A stretch of 62,440 nucleotides of DNA, filler included, from Globobulimina sp. (lineage: Eukaryota): NCBI GenBank assembly GCA_003354225.1. It is 27 parts of 27 records of this genome, joined end to end, with 100 filler letters (N's around TTAATTAATTAA, not from the genome) between each part and the next. Parts side by side here need not be neighbours in the genome. Positions count along the whole stretch, not along the records: positions 27,810 to 30,025 come from PIVH01008137.1; 26 more parts are not named here. One strand, written 5' to 3'. Shown in pieces: positions 9,502-59,755 of this stretch. Within the stretch, counting starts at the first letter, position 1; every line of letters starts with the position of its first letter. A program made the translations under genes and the position numbers. The notes under the pieces are model-generated. The model made no database searches. It worked only from the letters and a program-made list of their open reading frames with translations, and was not told the origin of the DNA.

Positions 9502-11490
9502 ATGGATGAAAAAAAAGGAGAATTTCTCGAACAATCGCTAGCTTTGGATCGCGAAGTAATAACCGTTGGTTTAGGAGCATGTGGCAATCGGATCAGTTGT
9601 GGGTTTTGGAGAAACATATTAGATGAACATAGTTTAGACTTTGATGGCACAATAATTGAAACAGACATAAACGATGATTATATCGTGGACAACACCCGCA
9701 TTGGTACATATTTTCGTGAACTGAAAGACACTGCAAACAAATATGTGCCACGAAACATAATCTGCGATTTGGACATCACCACTATTGACAGTGTGCGTGC
9801 CTCCAATCTGGGTTCATTATTCAACGCCGATTCGTATATTTACGCCGGTAATTCTGCCAATAACTTATATTCATTAGGCTATAATTCATGTATTATCGAT
9901 GACATATTTGAGGAAATACGTTTAGAAGCCGAGAAATGTTCATCCGTCCAAGGCTTTAAATTATTACACTCCGTCGGTGGTGGTACAGGCAGTGGTTTAA
10001 CTGCATACTTATCGCAGCTATTAAAAGATGAATTTTATGACAGATTGATCACTTCCTACACTGTCTACCCATCCAATAAAGCCTCCGATATTGTGATCGA
10101 GCCATACAACATGGTCCTATCTATGCCTTCGTTACTGTCGTATCATGACATTAATGCCTGTATTGATAATGAGACCTTATTTGATATTTCATCGCGTTTG
10201 TTCCATAACGAACGGCCCAATTTCAGTGACTTGAATGAGTATATTTCGAATATTATATCCTCCTCAACCGCCGGTTTACGCTTTAAAGGTTCCTTAAATA
10301 TGGATTTACGTAAATTGGCAGTCAATGTCATACCTTTCCCGCGTTTGCATTTCTTATCCATTTCGGATGCACCGTTGATGTATAACCATAATAGGAAATA
10401 CACCAAAATCAATATTGATACGCTGATTACTGAATTATTCCATTCGCAACAGTTTTTGTCGCATAATGATGATGTTGAATATAGCAAATATTTAGCAGCC
10501 TCAGTCATATTTCGTGGACAGCCCAAGAATGAATTTAATATTCTATTGAATGAGTATGAAATTGAATATGGTTTAAAACGTGTTTTTGATGAATTGGGCA
10601 CCAAAATGATGTGTAATGAGCTTGGTTACAATGTATTACATTCGACATTGGTGTATCAGCCGTCGCAGTCTTATCCATTGACAGCAACGTTATTTGCCAA
10701 CAATACCAGGTATGTGCCCTATACATGAAACCACGTCGACTTCCAATGACAGTGCTATGCATTGACAGCATCGCCGGCTTATTTGCGCGAAATTTGACGC
10801 GTTTTATGAAGTTTTACCACAAGAAAGCTTTCGTGCAATATTACACTCAGAATGGAACGGGAGAGGAGGACTTCGAAGAAGCGATTCACGAAATTAAGGA
10901 TTTATTGGAGGAGTATAATGAGAAAGATTCTTCATTGCAATCCTGCTCTGATTACGAATTAAATACATCGAATCGCAAGAAATTGCAGAAGAATAATGTA
11001 TTTTGGTCGCAATTCAATAAGAAAAGGAAAGTAAAAAAGAAACGGAAAAGGAAATTTAAACCGGTGGTGAGGAAGAATAAGAAAGTTTATGTCAAATCGA
11101 ATAATAAACGGGTGGTTATTATAAGTCATTCGCGCAGACAGGAAATCAACAAAAATTATAAGAAAGCACAAAATAAACGAAAAAAAATGAAGAAAAAAAA
11201 CAAACAGAAACATAAAAGTGATAGTGATGGTTTTGAGGAGGAGTCGTCGTCTGATGATAGTAACTCTGATTCGACAAATTCTTCAAGTCATTCATCATCG
11301 GATACGGATAAGTCATCGGGTAATGATAGCAGTGATGGTTCGAGTGATGGCAGTTCGAACTCAGAGAGTGAGGATGATGAAAGTATCGATAATTCATCAG
11401 ATACGAATACAGATAGTAATAGTAATTCGGACGCGAATACAGATAAAGATACGAGCAGTGATTCTGAAAAAACTGATACTGATTCTGATG
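9502..11490 (+). CDS. Highly divergent beta-tubulin-like protein with long basic then acidic C-terminal tail (intron 10710-10768), 3' partial
   Basis: REVITVGLGACGNRI, YVPRNIICDLD, HSVGGGTGSG, IEPYN, DNETL and DLRKLAVNVIPFPRLHF. The intron joins NTS-IAGLF in phase to ORF 10725. Confidence 0.9.
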
Positions 11491-27809: not shown

Positions 27810-28034
27810 ATTTATTTTATCAATGTGCTTTGTTTTTAAATGAATAATACCGTTTAAACAATGGATGTGCTGATATTGCTCATAGATAAAATGAGTGAAT
27901 GTTTCTGAATCATTATTTTCATAAATATTTAATGCATTTATTATATTCTGTACTTGAAGACATTTATTTGGATCATCAGTATCGCAGTCGAATGTTTGTT
28001 GTGCGAATAAAAGCTGTGCATACGTATCAGCCAT
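27810..28034 (-). CDS. N-terminal fragment of a hypothetical protein
   Basis: ATG-initiated frame running into the linker. Confidence 0.4.
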
Positions 28035-28154
28035 TTATTTTTGTGTTGGTCTGCAACCACATCAACACATGGTTCGATGCTTTAGGATTTTTGTTAGAGA
28101 TTTTCTTCTTCAAAATACTAAGACTTATTTCTGTTAATTGTGACTTATTTACAT

Positions 28155-29815
28155 TTACTGCTTGCCGCAAGAACAGACACCATTTTGAAATACATGTTTT
28201 TTGTTTGGGTCAATACATATAATCTTGACATCAGAACAATTCTTTGAAACACAACAAAAAAATGTATGACAATCATAACACATTCTCATTGACACATTTA
28301 TCGCAATGTGGTTTACATTTTTATCCATTAAAAATGCCAAAGCTCTTTTCTCTGCGTGGTAAGATAACATTTTATTTGCATATTCATCGGAAAACTCATA
28401 TTCCTCATTCAACATTCGGACTTCTGGATGTTTACACGTATCAACTGTATGGCCAACTTTTGCAATTAATTTGTCTGTTATTTCATTATAATTATAAATC
28501 AGCTCATCATCATTTTTATGGTATGTATTATCTAACACATACTCTCTATCATCGTATACAAATTTGGCATAAACCTGTCTGATATCATTGATTGTTTCCA
28601 ATAATGGCCATAAAACAGATTGCAATTCATAATGATTTGCAATGCATGCAATTCGATAAAAATGTTTTTTGCGATCATCGTTTACTTCCTTCCAATCGTT
28701 TACATATTTTATGGTTTGATTCAATGCTTTCATTTGATACTTATCCCTCTTTTCAAAAGTGGTTAAAATTGTTAATGACTCAATATCCGGTTTGTTATAG
28801 TTATCATATTCCATCCACATTTTGTCAAACTGAGACAAATGACCATACGCTGTCAATATTTGATGATAACAAAATCTATTTATTTTTAAATCAGTTTCGT
28901 TTAATTCATCAATTAACGCATTGACTAAATCCAATTTATTACATTGATATGCGGCCATAATCGCGAATGAATAACAGAGTGTGTTTGGTTTAATTGCGTA
29001 TTCGGAGTGCGATGTTATTTGATTCCAAATTGTTTCCACTGTTTCGGACTTGCCACTTTTTATTAATCCATCTAAAATACCGCAAAATATGTAAGTATCA
29101 AGCAATTTGTGGTGCGAATCCAATAATATCTCTCGCAGCAACACATCAAATGCATCAAAATCGGAAACTATTTGTATTTAATATTTAGTTTAATAGAAAC
29201 GAAACAGTGTAATGAAATAAATAAATCTTTACCTTTAAGAACAGCATTTATTAATATTGACATTGTATAACAATCAGGTGACACATTACATGTTTTCATG
29301 TCGTTGTATTCATCCAACATTGATTGGATATTATTGATTCTAGCAAATGCACCAATTAATCCATTCCATTTTCGGGTATCCATATCGAGCAAAAATTTAT
29401 TTTTCATTTCATAAGCAAATAATTTGACATTGTCACAATGTAAACATTTGCTCGCTGCTTTAATCAGCAAATTATAACAGCCAACGTCTGGTTTAATGTC
29501 ATTATTAATTACAAAATGGTTCCATACTTTTTCATAAAAATACGTTTTGCTTTTACTTTTTAAACAAGAATGTAGCATTGATGACAATGAATAATGTGTT
29601 AGTTCTACATTATTGTTTCGCATTTCATTCAATAATTCCAAACTTGCGTCAATTTCCCCTTTTTTTGATAATTTCCATAAATGTTTTTCATATTTCATAC
29701 GATCTGGTATCTGTTCTGTATGTACCAACATAGTGCATAATGAATTGTATATTGTTGTTAGGAGTATTTGCTTTTTGTAGCTCATGCATTTTACAAACAA
29801 AGTGAAAGTTTTCAT
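28155..29815 (-). CDS. PPR protein with C-terminal DYW-type deaminase domain (intron 29232-29168)
   Basis: ~35-aa PPR repeats (IKPDVGCYNLLIKA, WNGLIGAFAR, VSPDCYTMSILINA, IKPNTLCYSFAIMA). C-terminus LSYHAEKRALAF...MRMCYDCHTFF...D...HVFQNGVCSC. The intron joins the two ORFs in phase (LK-V-SDFDAF). Confidence 0.92.
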
Positions 29816-30293
29816 CTGCTATTTACATCGTTCCCTCATGTCATGCCAGGAAAGTGTGCAAAAAGTAGAGCCATTAAAATCGAGTAATACACCTAATACC
29901 CCACCGTCTGACAACTCCGACCTTATTAGGAAATAATAGCAATAATAATATATAATAATCGCATGCAATAACCAATCATAACGTATTTCCGAATAAAACA
30001 AATGAAACCATGACCCGGTAAATCANNNNNNNNNNNNNNNNNNNNNNNNNNNNNNNNNNNNNNNNNNNNTTAATTAATTAANNNNNNNNNNNNNNNNNNN
30101 NNNNNNNNNNNNNNNNNNNNNNNNNAAATTTATACAAAAATGAAATGAAAAAAAGAAAAATGAAAATGAAGATAATATAAAAAGGTAAGAAGAAAAAGTG
30201 TCTGTAAAAAGCATATATATAATAATAAACAAAACAAACAACAAAAAAGCAATTAGCAAAAGATGGACTGGGCCATGCACCACAATTAAATAT

Positions 30294-39389: not shown

Positions 39390-39842
39390 AATATTTTAAA
39401 AGAAAAAAAACATTTTTATCAGAAAACAAATGTTGTTTCAACTTTTTCTTTGAATAATAAACAATATGTGATACAAAGTGGATATATTAAAGATTGTGTA
39501 TTTTTTGGAGTGTCCAAAGTGGAACAATTAATGCATAAAATTGGTGGATATACAATGGATATATCCAATGTATCACAATTAGCAACAACATTATCTAAAG
39601 AAAAACTGTTAAAAAGCCATTCAGAAAAAAAAGCTTTATCTATTGTCTTATTATCAGATCCAAACAATACAAATACAAAAGATATTAAAATAAAAATATC
39701 AAATGGAATGAAAATGTGTTGTGATTGTCATAACTTTTTTTGTCAAGTCTCCAAAGTTTATAATCATCGAAATATTCTATGTATTGATGATAAGGGAATG
39801 CATATTTTCAAAAATGGTAAATGTCTATTATGCCACACTTAA
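39390..39842 (+). CDS. DYW-type deaminase domain, C-terminal fragment (likely a second PPR-DYW gene)
   Basis: Frame open from the contig start; GYTMDIS...LKSHSEKKAL...MKMCCDCHNFF...D..GMHIFKNGKCLLC. Confidence 0.88.
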   Translation, partial: NILKEKKHFYQKTNVVSTFSLNNKQYVIQSGYIKDCVFFGVSKVEQLMHKIGGYTMDISNVSQLATTLSKEKLLKSHSEKKALSIVLLSDPNNTNTKDIKIKISNGMKMCCDCHNFFCQVSKVYNHRNILCIDDKGMHIFKNGKCLLCHT

Positions 39843-58700: not shown

Positions 58701-59755
58701 TTAATCATCTTCATCTTCTTCAGACTCTGTCAAAATTCCAGTGTATAAATCTAAATAATCTTTCTCTAGAAAGCCTATATCCTCTCTTGCTTCAACAAAT
58801 TCACTTTCTTCCATTCCTTCTGAAATATAATTATGAACATAACATTTTCTATTCTCATACAATATGTCATATTTTCTGTTTATACGGTAAGTAAATAACC
58901 GAGAAATCCACATATTATTAGCCAGCATTGATATTTGTTTATCATTTATAAACATATCATCCGATGCTAGTTTAGCTGCCATACCATCCACAAACTTCAA
59001 CATTGGTTTCCCTGCACTAAATTCCATATAATAAAATTTTCTATTAACACTCATAAAATTCATTGCCGCATTTGTTTGACATATATATTCTTCAATATTC
59101 CTACCACGGCAACAAAACGATAGTGCACTGGTTTTATCCTCTTCTACATCAAAATCTAACACATCAATTATAAAATGCCTACTTTCCAAACATTGAGTGG
59201 TCAGACTCTGCATATCATCTTGAAATATCATATTTTTTTTATTTCTAGCTATTAAGGGCCACATTGAAGAAGTTAGCCATTTAATTCTAGGAAAACCAAC
59301 CATATCCACATAAATAGAATGCAATGTTTCGTTTATACCAAACCTTGTCGCTGCTGTGATATCTCCAATCAATTTTGTAAGTAACTTATTGTAGTTTTGA
59401 TACGTTGGTCGTGCAATATTTAGATACGTTTTGCACAAATTATTGCATGCGTTGTTATCAAATATAATATCAACATCCATATATTCCAACATATAATGAA
59501 CTGACAACAAAGAGTTGTATATCTCCGATGATGATGCTCTATATTCATCAAAGAGTACATTCATTCCAAAGTTTATTTTTTTGCGATAATTATTGTCAAT
59601 GTTTTCCAATATTAATGATGTGAGGCCACCGCCAGTGCCTCCAGATAATGAATGGTTAAACAAAAAACCTTGCAAATTGTCTGTTTCTTCCACTAGTTTT
59701 CGTACTGCATCATTGATACAATCAATTACTGTTTTGCCCTGCAAATAAGCTGGTT
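58701..59755 (-). CDS. Divergent alpha-tubulin-like protein, C-terminal two-thirds (N-terminus missing)
   Basis: DNLQGF, HSLSGGTGGG, DNNA, RPTYQNYNKL, FPRI, and YISEGMEESEFVEAREDIGFLEKDY (alpha signature). Confidence 0.88.

What the first reader, a model, noticed from the sequence alone, without database searches (positions are those of the whole stretch)
28155..29815. Intact-looking PPR-DYW (RNA-editing-factor-type) gene in a probable foraminiferan/rhizarian genome
Seen: a spliced gene of ~530 aa with a PPR array and a DYW-type domain that keeps HAE (catalytic Glu), CYDC and the terminal H...CSC zinc site, but ends CGKQ instead of DYW. Its 65-nt AT-rich intron matches the other host genes, which argues for a host nuclear gene rather than plant contamination. 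Known: PPR-DYW proteins carry out site-specific C-to-U editing in land-plant organelles and occur patchily in a few other eukaryotes such as Naegleria. Inference: this organism may have a little-studied mitochondrial editing system. This is the best candidate here for an undescribed system.
Basis: partly seen in the sequence, partly recalled or inferred. Interest (0 to 1): 0.8.

Follow-up and report, generated by a model that had tools for sequence, protein, structure and literature searches.

The report
Foraminiferal PPR-DYW RNA-editing-type gene
A foraminifer carries an intact, spliced gene of the kind that plants use to rewrite C to U in organelle RNA, which suggests that foraminiferal mitochondria may edit their RNA, although no editing has been shown.

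Summary
On the minus strand, 29815-28155 holds a two-exon, 531-codon gene with one 65-nt GT..AG intron (29232-29168). It encodes a PPR array and a DYW-type cytidine deaminase domain (Pfam 55.6 bits, cut-off 24) that keeps HAE, CxxCH and H..CSC but ends G-K-Q. Contigs from three sequencing runs in two studies carry exactly the predicted spliced form.

The window is not one locus. It is 27 unrelated ~2.2-kb contigs joined by linkers, so the neighbouring "host genes" are not linked to this gene. Host origin rests on other evidence:
- All 5 organism-named members of its DYW clade are foraminifers (Nonionella, Bolivina).
- A paralogue in another assembly has an intron at the same position and phase.
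- A second DYW gene fragment lies on another contig (39390-39842).
- The clade is separate from the plant/Naegleria type (support 97/86; AU p 0.013).

The predicted structure (pLDDT 93) matches a plant-type PPR-E1-E2-DYW/RNA complex over 312 residues (Z 25).

The most likely function is a mitochondrial, site-specific C-to-U editing factor (about 0.6), but no editing was tested. PPR-DYW proteins are already known in Rhizaria, so this is a divergent foraminiferal variant of a known kind. Interest is moderate.

The parts
27810..30025 (.). The 2216-bp contig that carries the gene. It is bounded on both sides by artificial N44-TTAATTAATTAA-N44 linkers.
   Evidence: GC 0.305
28155..29815 (-). PPR-DYW gene from the ATG to the stop, intron included. 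It has two exons and 531 codons.
   Evidence: the exon join is seen in contigs of X2, X3 and X4
29711..29815 (-). N-terminal 35 residues, which look like a presequence: 4 Lys, no acidic residue before E34, 8 Ser/Thr. Model confidence is low here.
   Evidence: composition, in-frame stop two codons upstream; pLDDT 48-74 over residues 1-40
29233..29710 (-). Exon-1 part of the PPR array: four helix hairpins plus the first helix of a fifth.
   Evidence: PPR_2 E 1.3e-17, PPR_long; AF2 pLDDT 90, helices 36-193
29168..29232 (-). Spliceosomal intron, 65 nt, GT..AG, phase 1, AT 0.82. It sits between the two helices of the fifth hairpin.
   Evidence: table 5 (joint 29167->29233 in X2, X3, X4; retained in X1); same position and phase in L001
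28785..29167 (-). Exon-2 part of the PPR array (exon-2 residues 1-127): the second helix of hairpin 5 and hairpins 6-8. It aligns structurally to the S1/P2-L2-S2 part of a plant-type editing factor.
   Evidence: model 1-336 against 9kfx_A 285-609
28578..28784 (-). Two further helix hairpins (exon-2 residues 128-196) in the structural position of the E1 and E2 motifs. They give no Pfam E_motif match.
28158..28577 (-). DYW-type cytidine deaminase domain (exon-2 residues 197-336).
   Evidence: PF14432, 55.6 bits; 7o4e_A E 2.9e-11; 7o4f_A Z 15.6, rmsd 2.7, 127 aligned
28350..28358 (-). H-A-E: the catalytic zinc ligand His and the proton-shuttle Glu (full-length H465, E467).
   Evidence: H and E are invariant in 42 of 42 aligned family members
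28266..28280 (-). C-Y-D-C-H: two Cys of the catalytic zinc site and the first ligand of the second zinc site (C491, C494, H495).
   Evidence: invariant
28167..28196 (-). H..F..G.C-S-C: the remaining ligands of the second zinc site (H519, C526, C528). G-K-Q and the stop follow, in place of D-Y-W.
   Evidence: at least 90% conserved
39390..39842 (+). Second, unlinked DYW-domain ORF from a different subfamily, with a C-x-L-C ending. It is open at the 5' end of its contig, and the stop is at 39840-39842.
   Evidence: Pfam DYW_deaminase E 3.2e-15; placed in a 23-row subfamily, support 98/94

Best explanation
This is a native nuclear gene of a foraminifer. It encodes a PPR-(E1/E2-like)-DYW protein that most likely works as a site-specific C-to-U RNA editing factor in the mitochondrion.

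Inferred mechanism, by analogy with plant PPR-DYW factors:
- The basic N-terminus, free of acidic residues, imports the protein into the mitochondrion.
- About eight PPR hairpins bind a defined single-stranded RNA sequence, roughly one nucleotide per repeat.
- The two E-like hairpins hold the nucleotides just upstream of the target.
- The zinc deaminase domain converts one cytidine a few nucleotides downstream to uridine. Zinc is held by H465, C491 and C494, and E467 is the proton shuttle.

Shown here: gene structure, splicing, domain content, conservation of the catalytic and second-zinc ligands, predicted fold, and foraminiferal ancestry.

Inferred only: mitochondrial location, RNA target and deaminase activity.
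For: Domains:
- DYW_deaminase scores 55.6 bits against a cut-off of 24, and PPR_2 gives E 1.3e-17.
- The sequence matches solved DYW domains: 7o4e_A E 2.9e-11, 9kfx_A 2e-09, 7w86_A 2.1e-09. HAE aligns to HSE, CYDCH to CRDCH or CGDCH, and CSCG to CSCG.

Conservation:
- H270, E272, C296, C299 and H300 (exon-2 numbering) are invariant in 42 of 42 aligned relatives. H324, C331 and C333 are at least 90% conserved.
- Among 51 database members of the clade, 50 keep HxE[KR] and 49 keep CxxCH.

Predicted fold:
- The AF2 model of exon 2 has pLDDT 93.0 and pTM 0.89.
- The best Foldseek match is the synthetic PPR-DYW/RNA complex 9kfx_A (E 5.1e-12, TMq 0.68, 323 columns).
- VIA-align gives Z 25.0, rmsd 4.3 and 312 aligned, with model 1-336 against chain 285-609. 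That chain range runs from late S1 through P2-L2-S2-E1-E2 to DYW. The DYW part alone gives Z 15.6 against 7o4f_A.

Expression and splicing: intron-less contigs occur in X2, X3 and X4 (two studies), and the intron-bearing contig is in X1.

Native origin:
- Of 22 clade members looked up, 5 carry an organism name and all 5 are foraminifers.
- There is a second paralogue in the same window.
- The paralogue locus L001 has a 61-nt phase-1 intron at the same position.

N-terminus: it has 4 Lys and only one acidic residue in the first 35. Orthologues P0002 and P0004 have 10 and 9 Lys/Arg against 1 acidic residue.

Established knowledge:
- PPR-DYW proteins alone perform C-to-U editing (PMC6397227, abstract in the search listing).
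- The structural mechanism is described in PMC13324415 (passages).
- Foraminifers have no permanent plastid (recalled), so the mitochondrion is the expected compartment.
Against: - No editing was tested here, and I found no report of C-to-U editing in foraminiferal mitochondria. PMC10127745 has 0 occurrences of 'PPR' or 'pentatricopeptide' and mentions only a possible post-transcriptional fix of a miliolid cox1 frameshift.
- The D-Y-W tripeptide is absent; the protein ends G-K-Q. In plant enzymes, alanine substitution of that Asp and Trp substantially reduces editing (PMC13324415, passages).
- Several plant residues are not kept, by my own counting on the alignment. The interface residues R591, R595, F596 and H598 of 9kfx align to I, K, K and V. 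The salt-bridge partner K578 aligns to C. The base-contacting Ser of HSE is Ala. R568 is kept.
- There is no PG-box sequence and no Pfam E_motif match.
- Only about 8 PPR hairpins are present. This is fewer than most plant editing factors (recalled) and may limit specificity.
- The presequence argument rests on composition only; no targeting predictor was available.
- The run kinds are unrecorded ('?'), so the spliced contigs are probably, but not certainly, cDNA.
- One X2 contig has an extra base in an A6 run after 28196. That would shift the frame 13 codons before the stop (table 4).
Confidence: 0.6

Rival explanations
1. It is an organellar RNA-binding or RNA-processing factor that does not edit. 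The PPR array would bind a transcript to stabilise, cleave, splice or help translate it, and the DYW-like domain would serve as a structural, zinc-binding or ribonuclease module.
For: - The D-Y-W tripeptide, the PG box, the E-motif signature and several plant PPR-DYW interface residues are not conserved (PMC13324415 passages).
- Naegleria and Acrasis carry 11 and 12 DYW proteins but have only two confirmed editing sites each. The authors therefore suggest other roles, such as endonucleolytic cleavage or splicing (PMC4202320, passages).
Against: The catalytic Glu and all three catalytic zinc ligands are invariant in 42 of 42 aligned relatives, and 50 of 51 clade members keep HxE[KR]. That pattern is what a retained deaminase chemistry would give. 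A purely structural role would not need the Glu.
Confidence: 0.2
2. It is an active deaminase with another substrate or compartment. Possible substrates are mitochondrial tRNA or rRNA, cytosolic or nuclear RNA, or foreign nucleic acid. Alternatively it could catalyse the reverse U-to-C reaction, as proposed for the DYW:KP variants of hornworts and ferns.
For: - The C-terminus and PPR-DYW interface differ from C-to-U plant enzymes.
- Several paralogue models start directly with the first PPR and have no N-terminal extension, though these may be truncated gene calls.
- The family appears large and diverse: 54 database representatives at 50% identity fell in this clade among the rows kept from the 150 best hits.
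Against: - The overall predicted architecture superposes on the C-to-U editing complex over 312 residues.
- The N-termini of this gene and its two full-length orthologues are basic and nearly free of acidic residues.
- PPR proteins are overwhelmingly organellar (established knowledge, recalled).
- I did not test for DYW:KP signature motifs.
Confidence: 0.12
3. It is not a functional host gene. It could be a contaminant contig from a plant, alga or rotifer, a recently transferred fragment, or a decaying pseudogene.
For: - The gene sits alone on a 2.2-kb contig of a very fragmented assembly.
- The protein-atlas feature search ranked a rotifer-labelled PPR-DYW cluster first, at 0.95.
- One X2 contig carries a frameshifting extra base.
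Against: - The frame is open across both exons, and the spliced form exists in three runs.
- The ten best exhaustive-search hits were all looked up. None is from a plant or rotifer, and the two that carry names are Nonionella.
- The clade splits from the plant/Naegleria type with support 97/86. Forcing the orthogroup together with that type is rejected (p-AU 0.0127).
- The intron position and phase are shared with a 37%-identical paralogue from another assembly.
- The atlas searches only clusters of 50 or more members and gives no alignment, so a rotifer label there says nothing about origin.
Confidence: 0.03

Closest known systems
Land-plant PLS-class PPR-E1-E2-DYW organellar C-to-U editing factors (structures 9kfx synthetic PPR-DYW with RNA; 7o4e/7o4f OTP86 DYW domain; 7w86 DYW1)
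   Same: - A PPR array is followed by two further helical hairpins and a C-terminal DYW-type deaminase.
- The HxE..CxxC catalytic zinc site and the CH..H..CxC second zinc site are both present.
- The predicted structure superposes on 9kfx_A at Z 25.0 over 312 residues, and on 7o4f_A at Z 15.6 over 127.
   Different: - It ends G-K-Q, not D-Y-W.
- There is no PG-box sequence and no Pfam E_motif hit. Naegleria and Selaginella controls do hit.
- It has HAE instead of HSE.
- The plant interface residues R591, R595, F596 and H598 are not kept.
- It has only about 8 PPR hairpins and 531 aa.
- It has a conserved phase-1 intron, whereas plant PPR genes are mostly intronless (recalled).
- It belongs to a separate clade (97/86; AU p 0.0127).
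DYW-type PPR proteins of Heterolobosea (Naegleria gruberi, e.g. XP_002682650.1 = P0059; Acrasis kona)
   Same: They are protist nuclear genes with PPR plus DYW deaminase, linked to a few confirmed mitochondrial C-to-U sites (PMC4202320, passages).
   Different: The Naegleria protein is plant-like. It gives the full 93/93 DYW profile at 128 bits, has an E_motif and ends G-Y-W. It falls inside the plant-type clade, not the foraminiferal one.
PPR-DYW proteins of paradinids (Ascetosporea, Rhizaria) with massive mitochondrial C-to-U and A-to-I editing (PMC11946409)
   Same: They come from the same eukaryotic supergroup. This is the first rhizarian case where PPR-DYW proteins and C-to-U editing were found together, and one of the proteins is predicted to be mitochondrial (passages).
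   Different: That paper groups the paradinid sequences with fungal (Agaricales) DYW proteins and a plant origin. I had no paradinid sequence to place in my tree, so the relation to the foraminiferal clade is untested.
Bdelloid rotifer DYW-subgroup PPR family (PMC13386178)
   Same: They are non-plant PPR-DYW proteins of similar length. A rotifer-labelled cluster with a 552-aa representative was the top feature-similarity hit.
   Different: - No rotifer protein was among the 22 clade members I looked up.
- The paper embeds rotifer domains among plant sequences (passages).
- I could not fetch a named rotifer sequence, so their placement against this clade is not directly tested.

Membership tests
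DYW-deaminase PPR proteins (broad sense: PPR array + PF14432 domain) | DYW_deaminase profile match above Pfam's gathering score | tested here: met
   55.6 bits against a cut-off of 24, E 4.9e-15, profile positions 11-91 of 93
DYW-deaminase PPR proteins (broad sense: PPR array + PF14432 domain) | Tandem PPR motifs N-terminal to the deaminase | tested here: met
   - PPR_2 gives E 1.3e-17, and PPR_long, PPR_1 and PPR_3 also hit.
- Designer-PPR structures match at E down to 3.5e-20.
- The AF2 models show about 8 helix hairpins.
DYW-deaminase PPR proteins (broad sense: PPR array + PF14432 domain) | HxE(x)nCxxC catalytic zinc and glutamate signature | tested here: met
   H-A-E and C-Y-D-C are present and aligned to those of 7o4e, 9kfx and 7w86. 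They are invariant in 42 of 42 relatives.
DYW-deaminase PPR proteins (broad sense: PPR array + PF14432 domain) | Second zinc site (His of CxxCH, then H..CxC near the C-terminus) | tested here: met
   H300, H324, C331 and C333 (exon-2 numbering) are present and at least 90% conserved.
Plant-type PLS-E1-E2-DYW editing factors (strict sense) | C-terminal D-Y-W (or close) tripeptide | tested here: not met
   The protein ends C-S-C-G-K-Q and is one residue shorter. Its orthologues end G-K-N, G-K-V, G-K-D and G-R-T.
Plant-type PLS-E1-E2-DYW editing factors (strict sense) | PG box at the start of the DYW domain | tested here: not met
   No P-G..S-W-I-E-like sequence precedes the domain (read). phmmer aligns 7o4e only from chain residue 22. 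A beta-hairpin is predicted at the equivalent place (residues 199-212), so the structural element may still be there.
Plant-type PLS-E1-E2-DYW editing factors (strict sense) | E1/E2 motifs between the PPR array and the DYW domain | tested here: inconclusive
   - Pfam E_motif gave no hit in any of the 4 proteins tested that span the E region (window exon 2, P0004, P0007, P0046). The second window ORF tested holds the DYW domain only.
- It is present in the Naegleria and Selaginella controls.
- Two hairpins do occupy the E1/E2 position when the model is superposed on 9kfx_A 285-609.
Plant-type PLS-E1-E2-DYW editing factors (strict sense) | PLS-type alternation of repeat lengths | tested here: inconclusive
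   The last three repeats measure roughly 37, 35 and 31 residues by my reading of the alignment and the helices. No PLS-specific profiles were available to classify them.
Plant-type PLS-E1-E2-DYW editing factors (strict sense) | Phylogenetic placement of the DYW domain within the plant-type clade | tested here: not met
   It falls in a 53-row clade split from the plant/Naegleria and other rows at 97/86, and at 99 SH-aLRT in the 114-row tree. Holding it with the plant type is rejected at p-AU 0.0127, with the grouping named after the tree was seen.
Organellar C-to-U RNA editing factors (functional class) | Import into mitochondrion or plastid | not testable with these tools
   Only composition could be assessed: the first 35 residues have 4 Lys and 1 acidic residue, and the orthologues are more basic. 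No targeting predictor was available.
Organellar C-to-U RNA editing factors (functional class) | A cognate C-to-U site in organelle transcripts | not testable with these tools
   No mitochondrial DNA or RNA of this organism was available.

The most novel reading that the evidence does not exclude
Foraminifera as a group may carry a large, old, lineage-specific radiation of PPR-DYW deaminases.

What points that way:
- There are at least two deep subfamilies, one of which has a C-x-L-C variant of the second zinc site.
- They have a conserved phase-1 intron and no D-Y-W tail.
- Two of 27 random 2.2-kb contigs in this window carry such a gene.
- Nonionella alone contributes four representatives clustered at 50% identity.

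This would imply extensive, so far unnoticed C-to-U editing of the highly divergent foraminiferal mitochondrial transcripts. If so, mitochondrial protein sequences and COI barcodes read from DNA would differ systematically from the expressed ones.
Probability: 0.35. Interest if true: 0.7.

Novelty: new variant of a known kind. Interest (0 to 1): 0.5.

Why it matters
PPR-DYW proteins are the only known enzymes for site-specific C-to-U editing of organelle RNA. Wherever they have been found outside plants and then followed up (Naegleria, Acrasis, paradinids), mitochondrial C-to-U editing was found too.

Foraminifera are abundant and geologically important, and their mitochondrial genomes were described only in 2021-2023. 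An expressed, conserved and apparently multi-member DYW family makes mitochondrial RNA editing in this group directly testable with existing DNA and RNA data.

The clade also offers compact natural deaminase domains that work, if they work, without the D-Y-W tail and PG box that plant enzymes need. That is of interest for understanding the fold and for engineered RNA editors.

Tried and rejected
- **Own genome.** It is not held, so no genome-wide HMM count was possible.
- **Earlier scan notes.** There were none for this genome or sequence. A word search returned two Naegleria notes that do not bear on this case.
- **RNA runs.** No RNA holder was listed for the contig, and all run kinds are '?'.
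- **Supplements.** It may already list foraminiferal proteins.
- **Profile search.** The word-indexed search with the family alignment returned only 6 proteins and added one label.
- **Atlas hit.** The top hit was labelled Rotifera. I treated it as a lead only, because the atlas searches only large clusters and gives no alignment.
- **Papers not held.** The Knoop 2023 review and the Schallenberg-Rudinger 2013 survey were not held, so I cannot say whether they mention foraminifers.
- **Literature searches for foraminiferal DYW/PPR or editing:**
  - DYW + Reticulomyxa: 1 paper, with the two terms in unrelated sections.
  - DYW + foraminifer: 2 papers. One is the same Physarum paper. The other is a gregarine paper seen only in the listing.
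  - Pentatricopeptide + foraminifer: 13 papers, 10 listed. By title they concern corals, dinoflagellates and Plasmodiophora (listing only).
  - Foraminifera + mitochondrial genome + RNA editing: 26 papers, 15 listed. Two were read in passages and report no C-to-U editing.
- **Flanking ORFs.** The ORFs at 27810-28034 and 29819-30022 gave no Pfam family.
- **Target prediction.** I did not try a PPR-code target prediction because no mitochondrial sequence of the organism was available.
- **Differences between contigs.** Differences between the intron-bearing X1 contig and the spliced X3 and X4 contigs are all transitions of mixed direction. I read them as alleles or strain variants, not editing.
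- **Rows dropped before the trees:**
  - Of the 153 proteins then held (the 150 listed hits plus P0001, P0002 and P0004) and two cluster members added (P0274, P0275), 135 matched the DYW part and 120 passed the coverage filter.
  - 113 of those were at least 110 aa and were used together with the window protein.
  - The second tree used 51 of the 54 database ingroup rows, leaving out the long-branched P0120 and P0121 and the duplicate P0274. It used 22 of the 59 outgroup rows, picked by hand.
Full report
**What the window is.** The 62,440-base window is not one genomic region. It holds 52 runs of exactly 44 N in pairs around the 12-mer TTAATTAATTAA, and these cut it into 27 pieces of 2214-2218 bp sorted by length. 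It is therefore a chain of unrelated short contigs from a very fragmented assembly. The finding sits alone on contig 27810-30025 (2216 bp, GC 0.305; the contigs range from 0.296 to 0.465). Nothing outside those coordinates is physically linked to it. No whole genome is held for the window.

**The observation.**
- The ATG is at 29815, with an in-frame stop two codons upstream.
- Exon 1 is 29815-29233.
- The intron is 29232-29168: 65 nt, GT..AG, phase 1, AT 0.82.
- Exon 2 is 29167-28158, and the TAA stop is at 28157-28155.
- The joined frame has 531 codons.

Pfam finds DYW_deaminase in exon 2 (E 4.9e-15, 55.6 bits, cut-off 24). In exon 1 it finds PPR_2 (E 1.3e-17) with PPR_long, PPR_1 and PPR_3.

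**The intron is real and the gene is probably expressed.** Public-run contigs were laid on the contig.
- One contig each from X2 (1512 nt), X3 (883 nt) and X4 (1248 nt) joins 29167 directly to 29233. This is the predicted splice, read as CT..AC on the plus strand.
- An X1 contig of 1351 nt runs through the intron, with a 6-base insertion inside it.
- X1, X3 and X4 are one sample, and X2 is from another study under another organism code.

The run kinds are not on record. The simplest reading is that X1 is DNA and the others are cDNA. An intron-less DNA copy is not strictly excluded. One X2 contig has an extra base in an A6 run after 28196, which would shift the frame 13 codons before the stop. 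X1 and X3 also cover that place and do not show it.

**Whose gene is it?**
- The word-indexed search found only five close relatives (67-48% identity), all unnamed.
- The exhaustive HMMER search found 481 proteins at E<=1e-3, 60 at <=1e-10 and 20 at <=1e-30. The better ones align over the whole of exon 2, not just the deaminase.
- I looked up 22 members of the clade that contains the window protein. Five carry an organism name, and all five are foraminifers. They are Nonionella stella (P0007, P0009, P0025, P0046) and Bolivina argentea (P0041). The other 17 are unnamed.
- A divergent tubulin ORF on another contig of the window is 81% identical to a Bolivina protein and 72% to a Nonionella protein. 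Every other hit that names an organism is 43% or less. So the assembly is foraminiferal.
- tblastn with family members found a second DYW domain in the window at 39390-39842, on another contig. Its ORF is cut by the contig end and ends C-L-L-C-H-T (Pfam E 3.2e-15).

**Phylogeny of the DYW domain.**
- In a 114-row tree, the window protein falls in a 55-row set (SH-aLRT 99) that holds every named foraminifer. Selaginella and Naegleria fall in a separate 26-row set (97) inside the other half.
- A careful tree of 75 rows gives the foraminiferal set against the rest at 97/86.
- It places the window protein in a five-row orthogroup (96/93) and an eight-row set with Nonionella P0009 (99/97).
- It places the second window copy in a 23-row C-x-L-C subfamily (98/94) with Nonionella and Bolivina.
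- Forcing the orthogroup together with the plant/Naegleria type costs 17.2 log-likelihood units, p-AU 0.0127. This grouping was chosen after the tree was seen.
- The trees are unrooted, so they do not say who gave the domain to whom.
- I had no named rotifer, paradinid, fungal or Physarum sequence to add.

**A shared intron.** One metagenome-collection locus, L001, encodes a 37%-identical paralogue (it encodes P0012). It is split in the same way. ORF 328-906 and ORF 917-1927 are joined by a 61-nt GT..AG phase-1 intron (863-923), directly after the equivalent Lys codon. Two observations point the same way, as inference. P0002 carries about 27 extra residues at this very spot, and P0001 begins there. 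That looks like an unspliced intron in the gene calls. A conserved intron across paralogues argues for an old nuclear family rather than a recent transfer or contamination.

Those genes are unlinked. The one other intron I could define with homologue support (tubulin, 10710-10768, 59 nt) has AT of only 0.54.

**Structure.**
- AlphaFold2 on exon 2 with 42 relatives gives pLDDT 93.0 and pTM 0.89. It shows helical hairpins up to residue 190, then a beta-hairpin, helices and strands of a deaminase fold.
- The best Foldseek match is 9kfx_A, a synthetic plant-type PPR-DYW protein bound to its RNA (E 5.1e-12, TMq 0.68, 323 columns).
- VIA-align gives Z 25.0, rmsd 4.3 and 312 aligned, with model 1-336 against chain 285-609.
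- By the motif numbering in PMC13324415 (passages), that range runs from the end of S1 through P2-L2-S2-E1-E2 into the DYW domain.
- The DYW part alone matches OTP86 (7o4f_A) at Z 15.6, rmsd 2.7 and 127 aligned.
- Exon 1 folds with pLDDT 90 into four and a half further hairpins after a low-confidence first 35 residues.

The protein therefore has about eight PPR-like hairpins, two hairpins in the E1/E2 position and a complete deaminase domain. The intron lies inside hairpin five.

**Conservation.** In the 42-sequence alignment, H270, E272, C296, C299, H300 and S307 (exon-2 numbering; add 195 for full length) are invariant. H324, C331 and C333 are at least 90% conserved. Among 51 database members of the clade, 50 keep HxE[KR] and 49 keep CxxCH. 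This is the pattern expected for an active zinc deaminase.

**What differs from plant enzymes.**
- There is no D-Y-W tail. In plants the Asp makes a salt bridge to K578 and the Trp covers the second zinc, and alanine changes there substantially reduce editing (PMC13324415, passages).
- In this protein K578 aligns to Cys and the Asp position to Lys.
- The interface residues R591, R595, F596 and H598 align to I, K, K and V. R568 is kept.
- The Ser of HSE is Ala. These alignments are my own counting on the alignment.
- There is no PG-box sequence.
- There is no Pfam E_motif hit in any of the four foraminiferal proteins tested that span the E region (window exon 2, P0004, P0007, P0046). The Naegleria and Selaginella controls do hit.
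- PMC13386178 (passages) notes that the PG box and the tripeptide vary among non-plant DYW domains.

**Function.** The best-supported reading is a mitochondrial, site-specific C-to-U editing factor working as in plants.
- Shown: gene, splicing, domains, catalytic residues, predicted fold, lineage.
- Inferred: import, RNA target and activity. The N-terminus has 4 Lys and one acidic residue in 35. Orthologues P0002 and P0004 have 10 and 9 basic residues against 1 acidic.

I put this reading at about 0.6. The rivals are a non-editing RNA-processing role (0.2), another substrate, compartment or reaction direction (0.12), and contamination or a pseudogene (0.03).

**What is in print.**
- PPR-DYW proteins outside plants are well known in Naegleria, Acrasis, Physarum, rotifers and fungi (PMC4202320, PMC4758236 and PMC13386178, passages).
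- In Rhizaria, paradinids were reported in 2025 to have PPR-DYW proteins and massive C-to-U and A-to-I mitochondrial editing. That paper states that C-to-U editing had never before been reported in rhizarians (PMC11946409, passages).
- The 2026 survey counts 31 DYW domains in Rhizaria without naming species in the main text.
- My searches found no paper that discusses DYW or PPR proteins of foraminifers. They found none that reports C-to-U editing in foraminiferal mitochondria.
- The 2023 description of foraminiferal mitochondrial genomes mentions only a possible post-transcriptional correction of a cox1 frameshift in miliolids (PMC10127745, passages).

**Verdict.** This is a real, intact and very probably expressed foraminiferal PPR-DYW gene. 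It belongs to a divergent, multi-member foraminiferal clade of a known enzyme family. It is not an undescribed kind of system. It does predict an editing activity that has not been looked for in an important group, and existing data types can test that prediction.

Noticed in passing
window 1-62440: The window is an artificial chain of 27 contigs of 2214-2218 bp, sorted by length and joined by N44-TTAATTAATTAA-N44 linkers. Any reasoning from 'neighbouring genes' across a linker is invalid.
   Followed up: yes
window 39390-39842 (+): A second DYW-deaminase ORF is cut by the 5' end of its contig. It keeps HSE and CCDCH and ends C-L-L-C-H-T, so the spacing of the last two zinc-site cysteines differs (CxxC, not CxC). 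It belongs to a different foraminiferal subfamily. An EF-hand protein ORF follows on the same contig (40347-41603).
   Followed up: partly
window 27810-28034 (-): A second ORF starts with ATG at 28034, only 120 nt downstream of the DYW gene's stop, and runs off the contig end (75 aa, no Pfam family). This stretch has much higher contig depth in X2 (78) than the DYW gene (9), so it looks like a separate, more abundant transcript.
   Followed up: partly
window 29808-30025: The 5' flank of the gene is covered at high depth in X2-X4 (about 57-171) by contigs that diverge from the window, with blocks of 52 and 67 other letters. It is probably a repeated or highly expressed element abutting the gene. 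None of the spliced contigs reaches the ATG; they end at 29733, 29709 and 29533.
   Followed up: no
window 9502-11225 (+) and 58749-59729 (-): The first is a highly divergent tubulin gene, 81% identical to Bolivina argentea and 72% to Nonionella stella but 43% or less to any other hit that names an organism. It has a 59-nt GT..AG intron at 10710-10768. A second, more distant tubulin-like ORF lies on another contig.
   Followed up: partly
window 28194-29499: All single-base differences between the window or X1 contig and the spliced contigs of X3 and X4 (same sample) are transitions, in mixed directions. I read them as allelic or strain variation. This needs raw reads to settle.
   Followed up: no
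L001 1906-3888 (+): In the paralogue locus, a 660-aa ORF rich in acidic and basic low-complexity tails begins before the DYW gene's stop (1927) in another frame, and GC rises from 0.30 to 0.42. This suggests tightly packed genes in that assembly as well.
   Followed up: no
proteins P0106, P0111, P0132, P0144, P0086 and others: A separate group of DYW domains from unnamed metagenome sources carries a C-terminal extension after CSCGD, of the type R-W-R-W-E-E. One 90% cluster has 75 members. Their organism and role are unknown.
   Followed up: no
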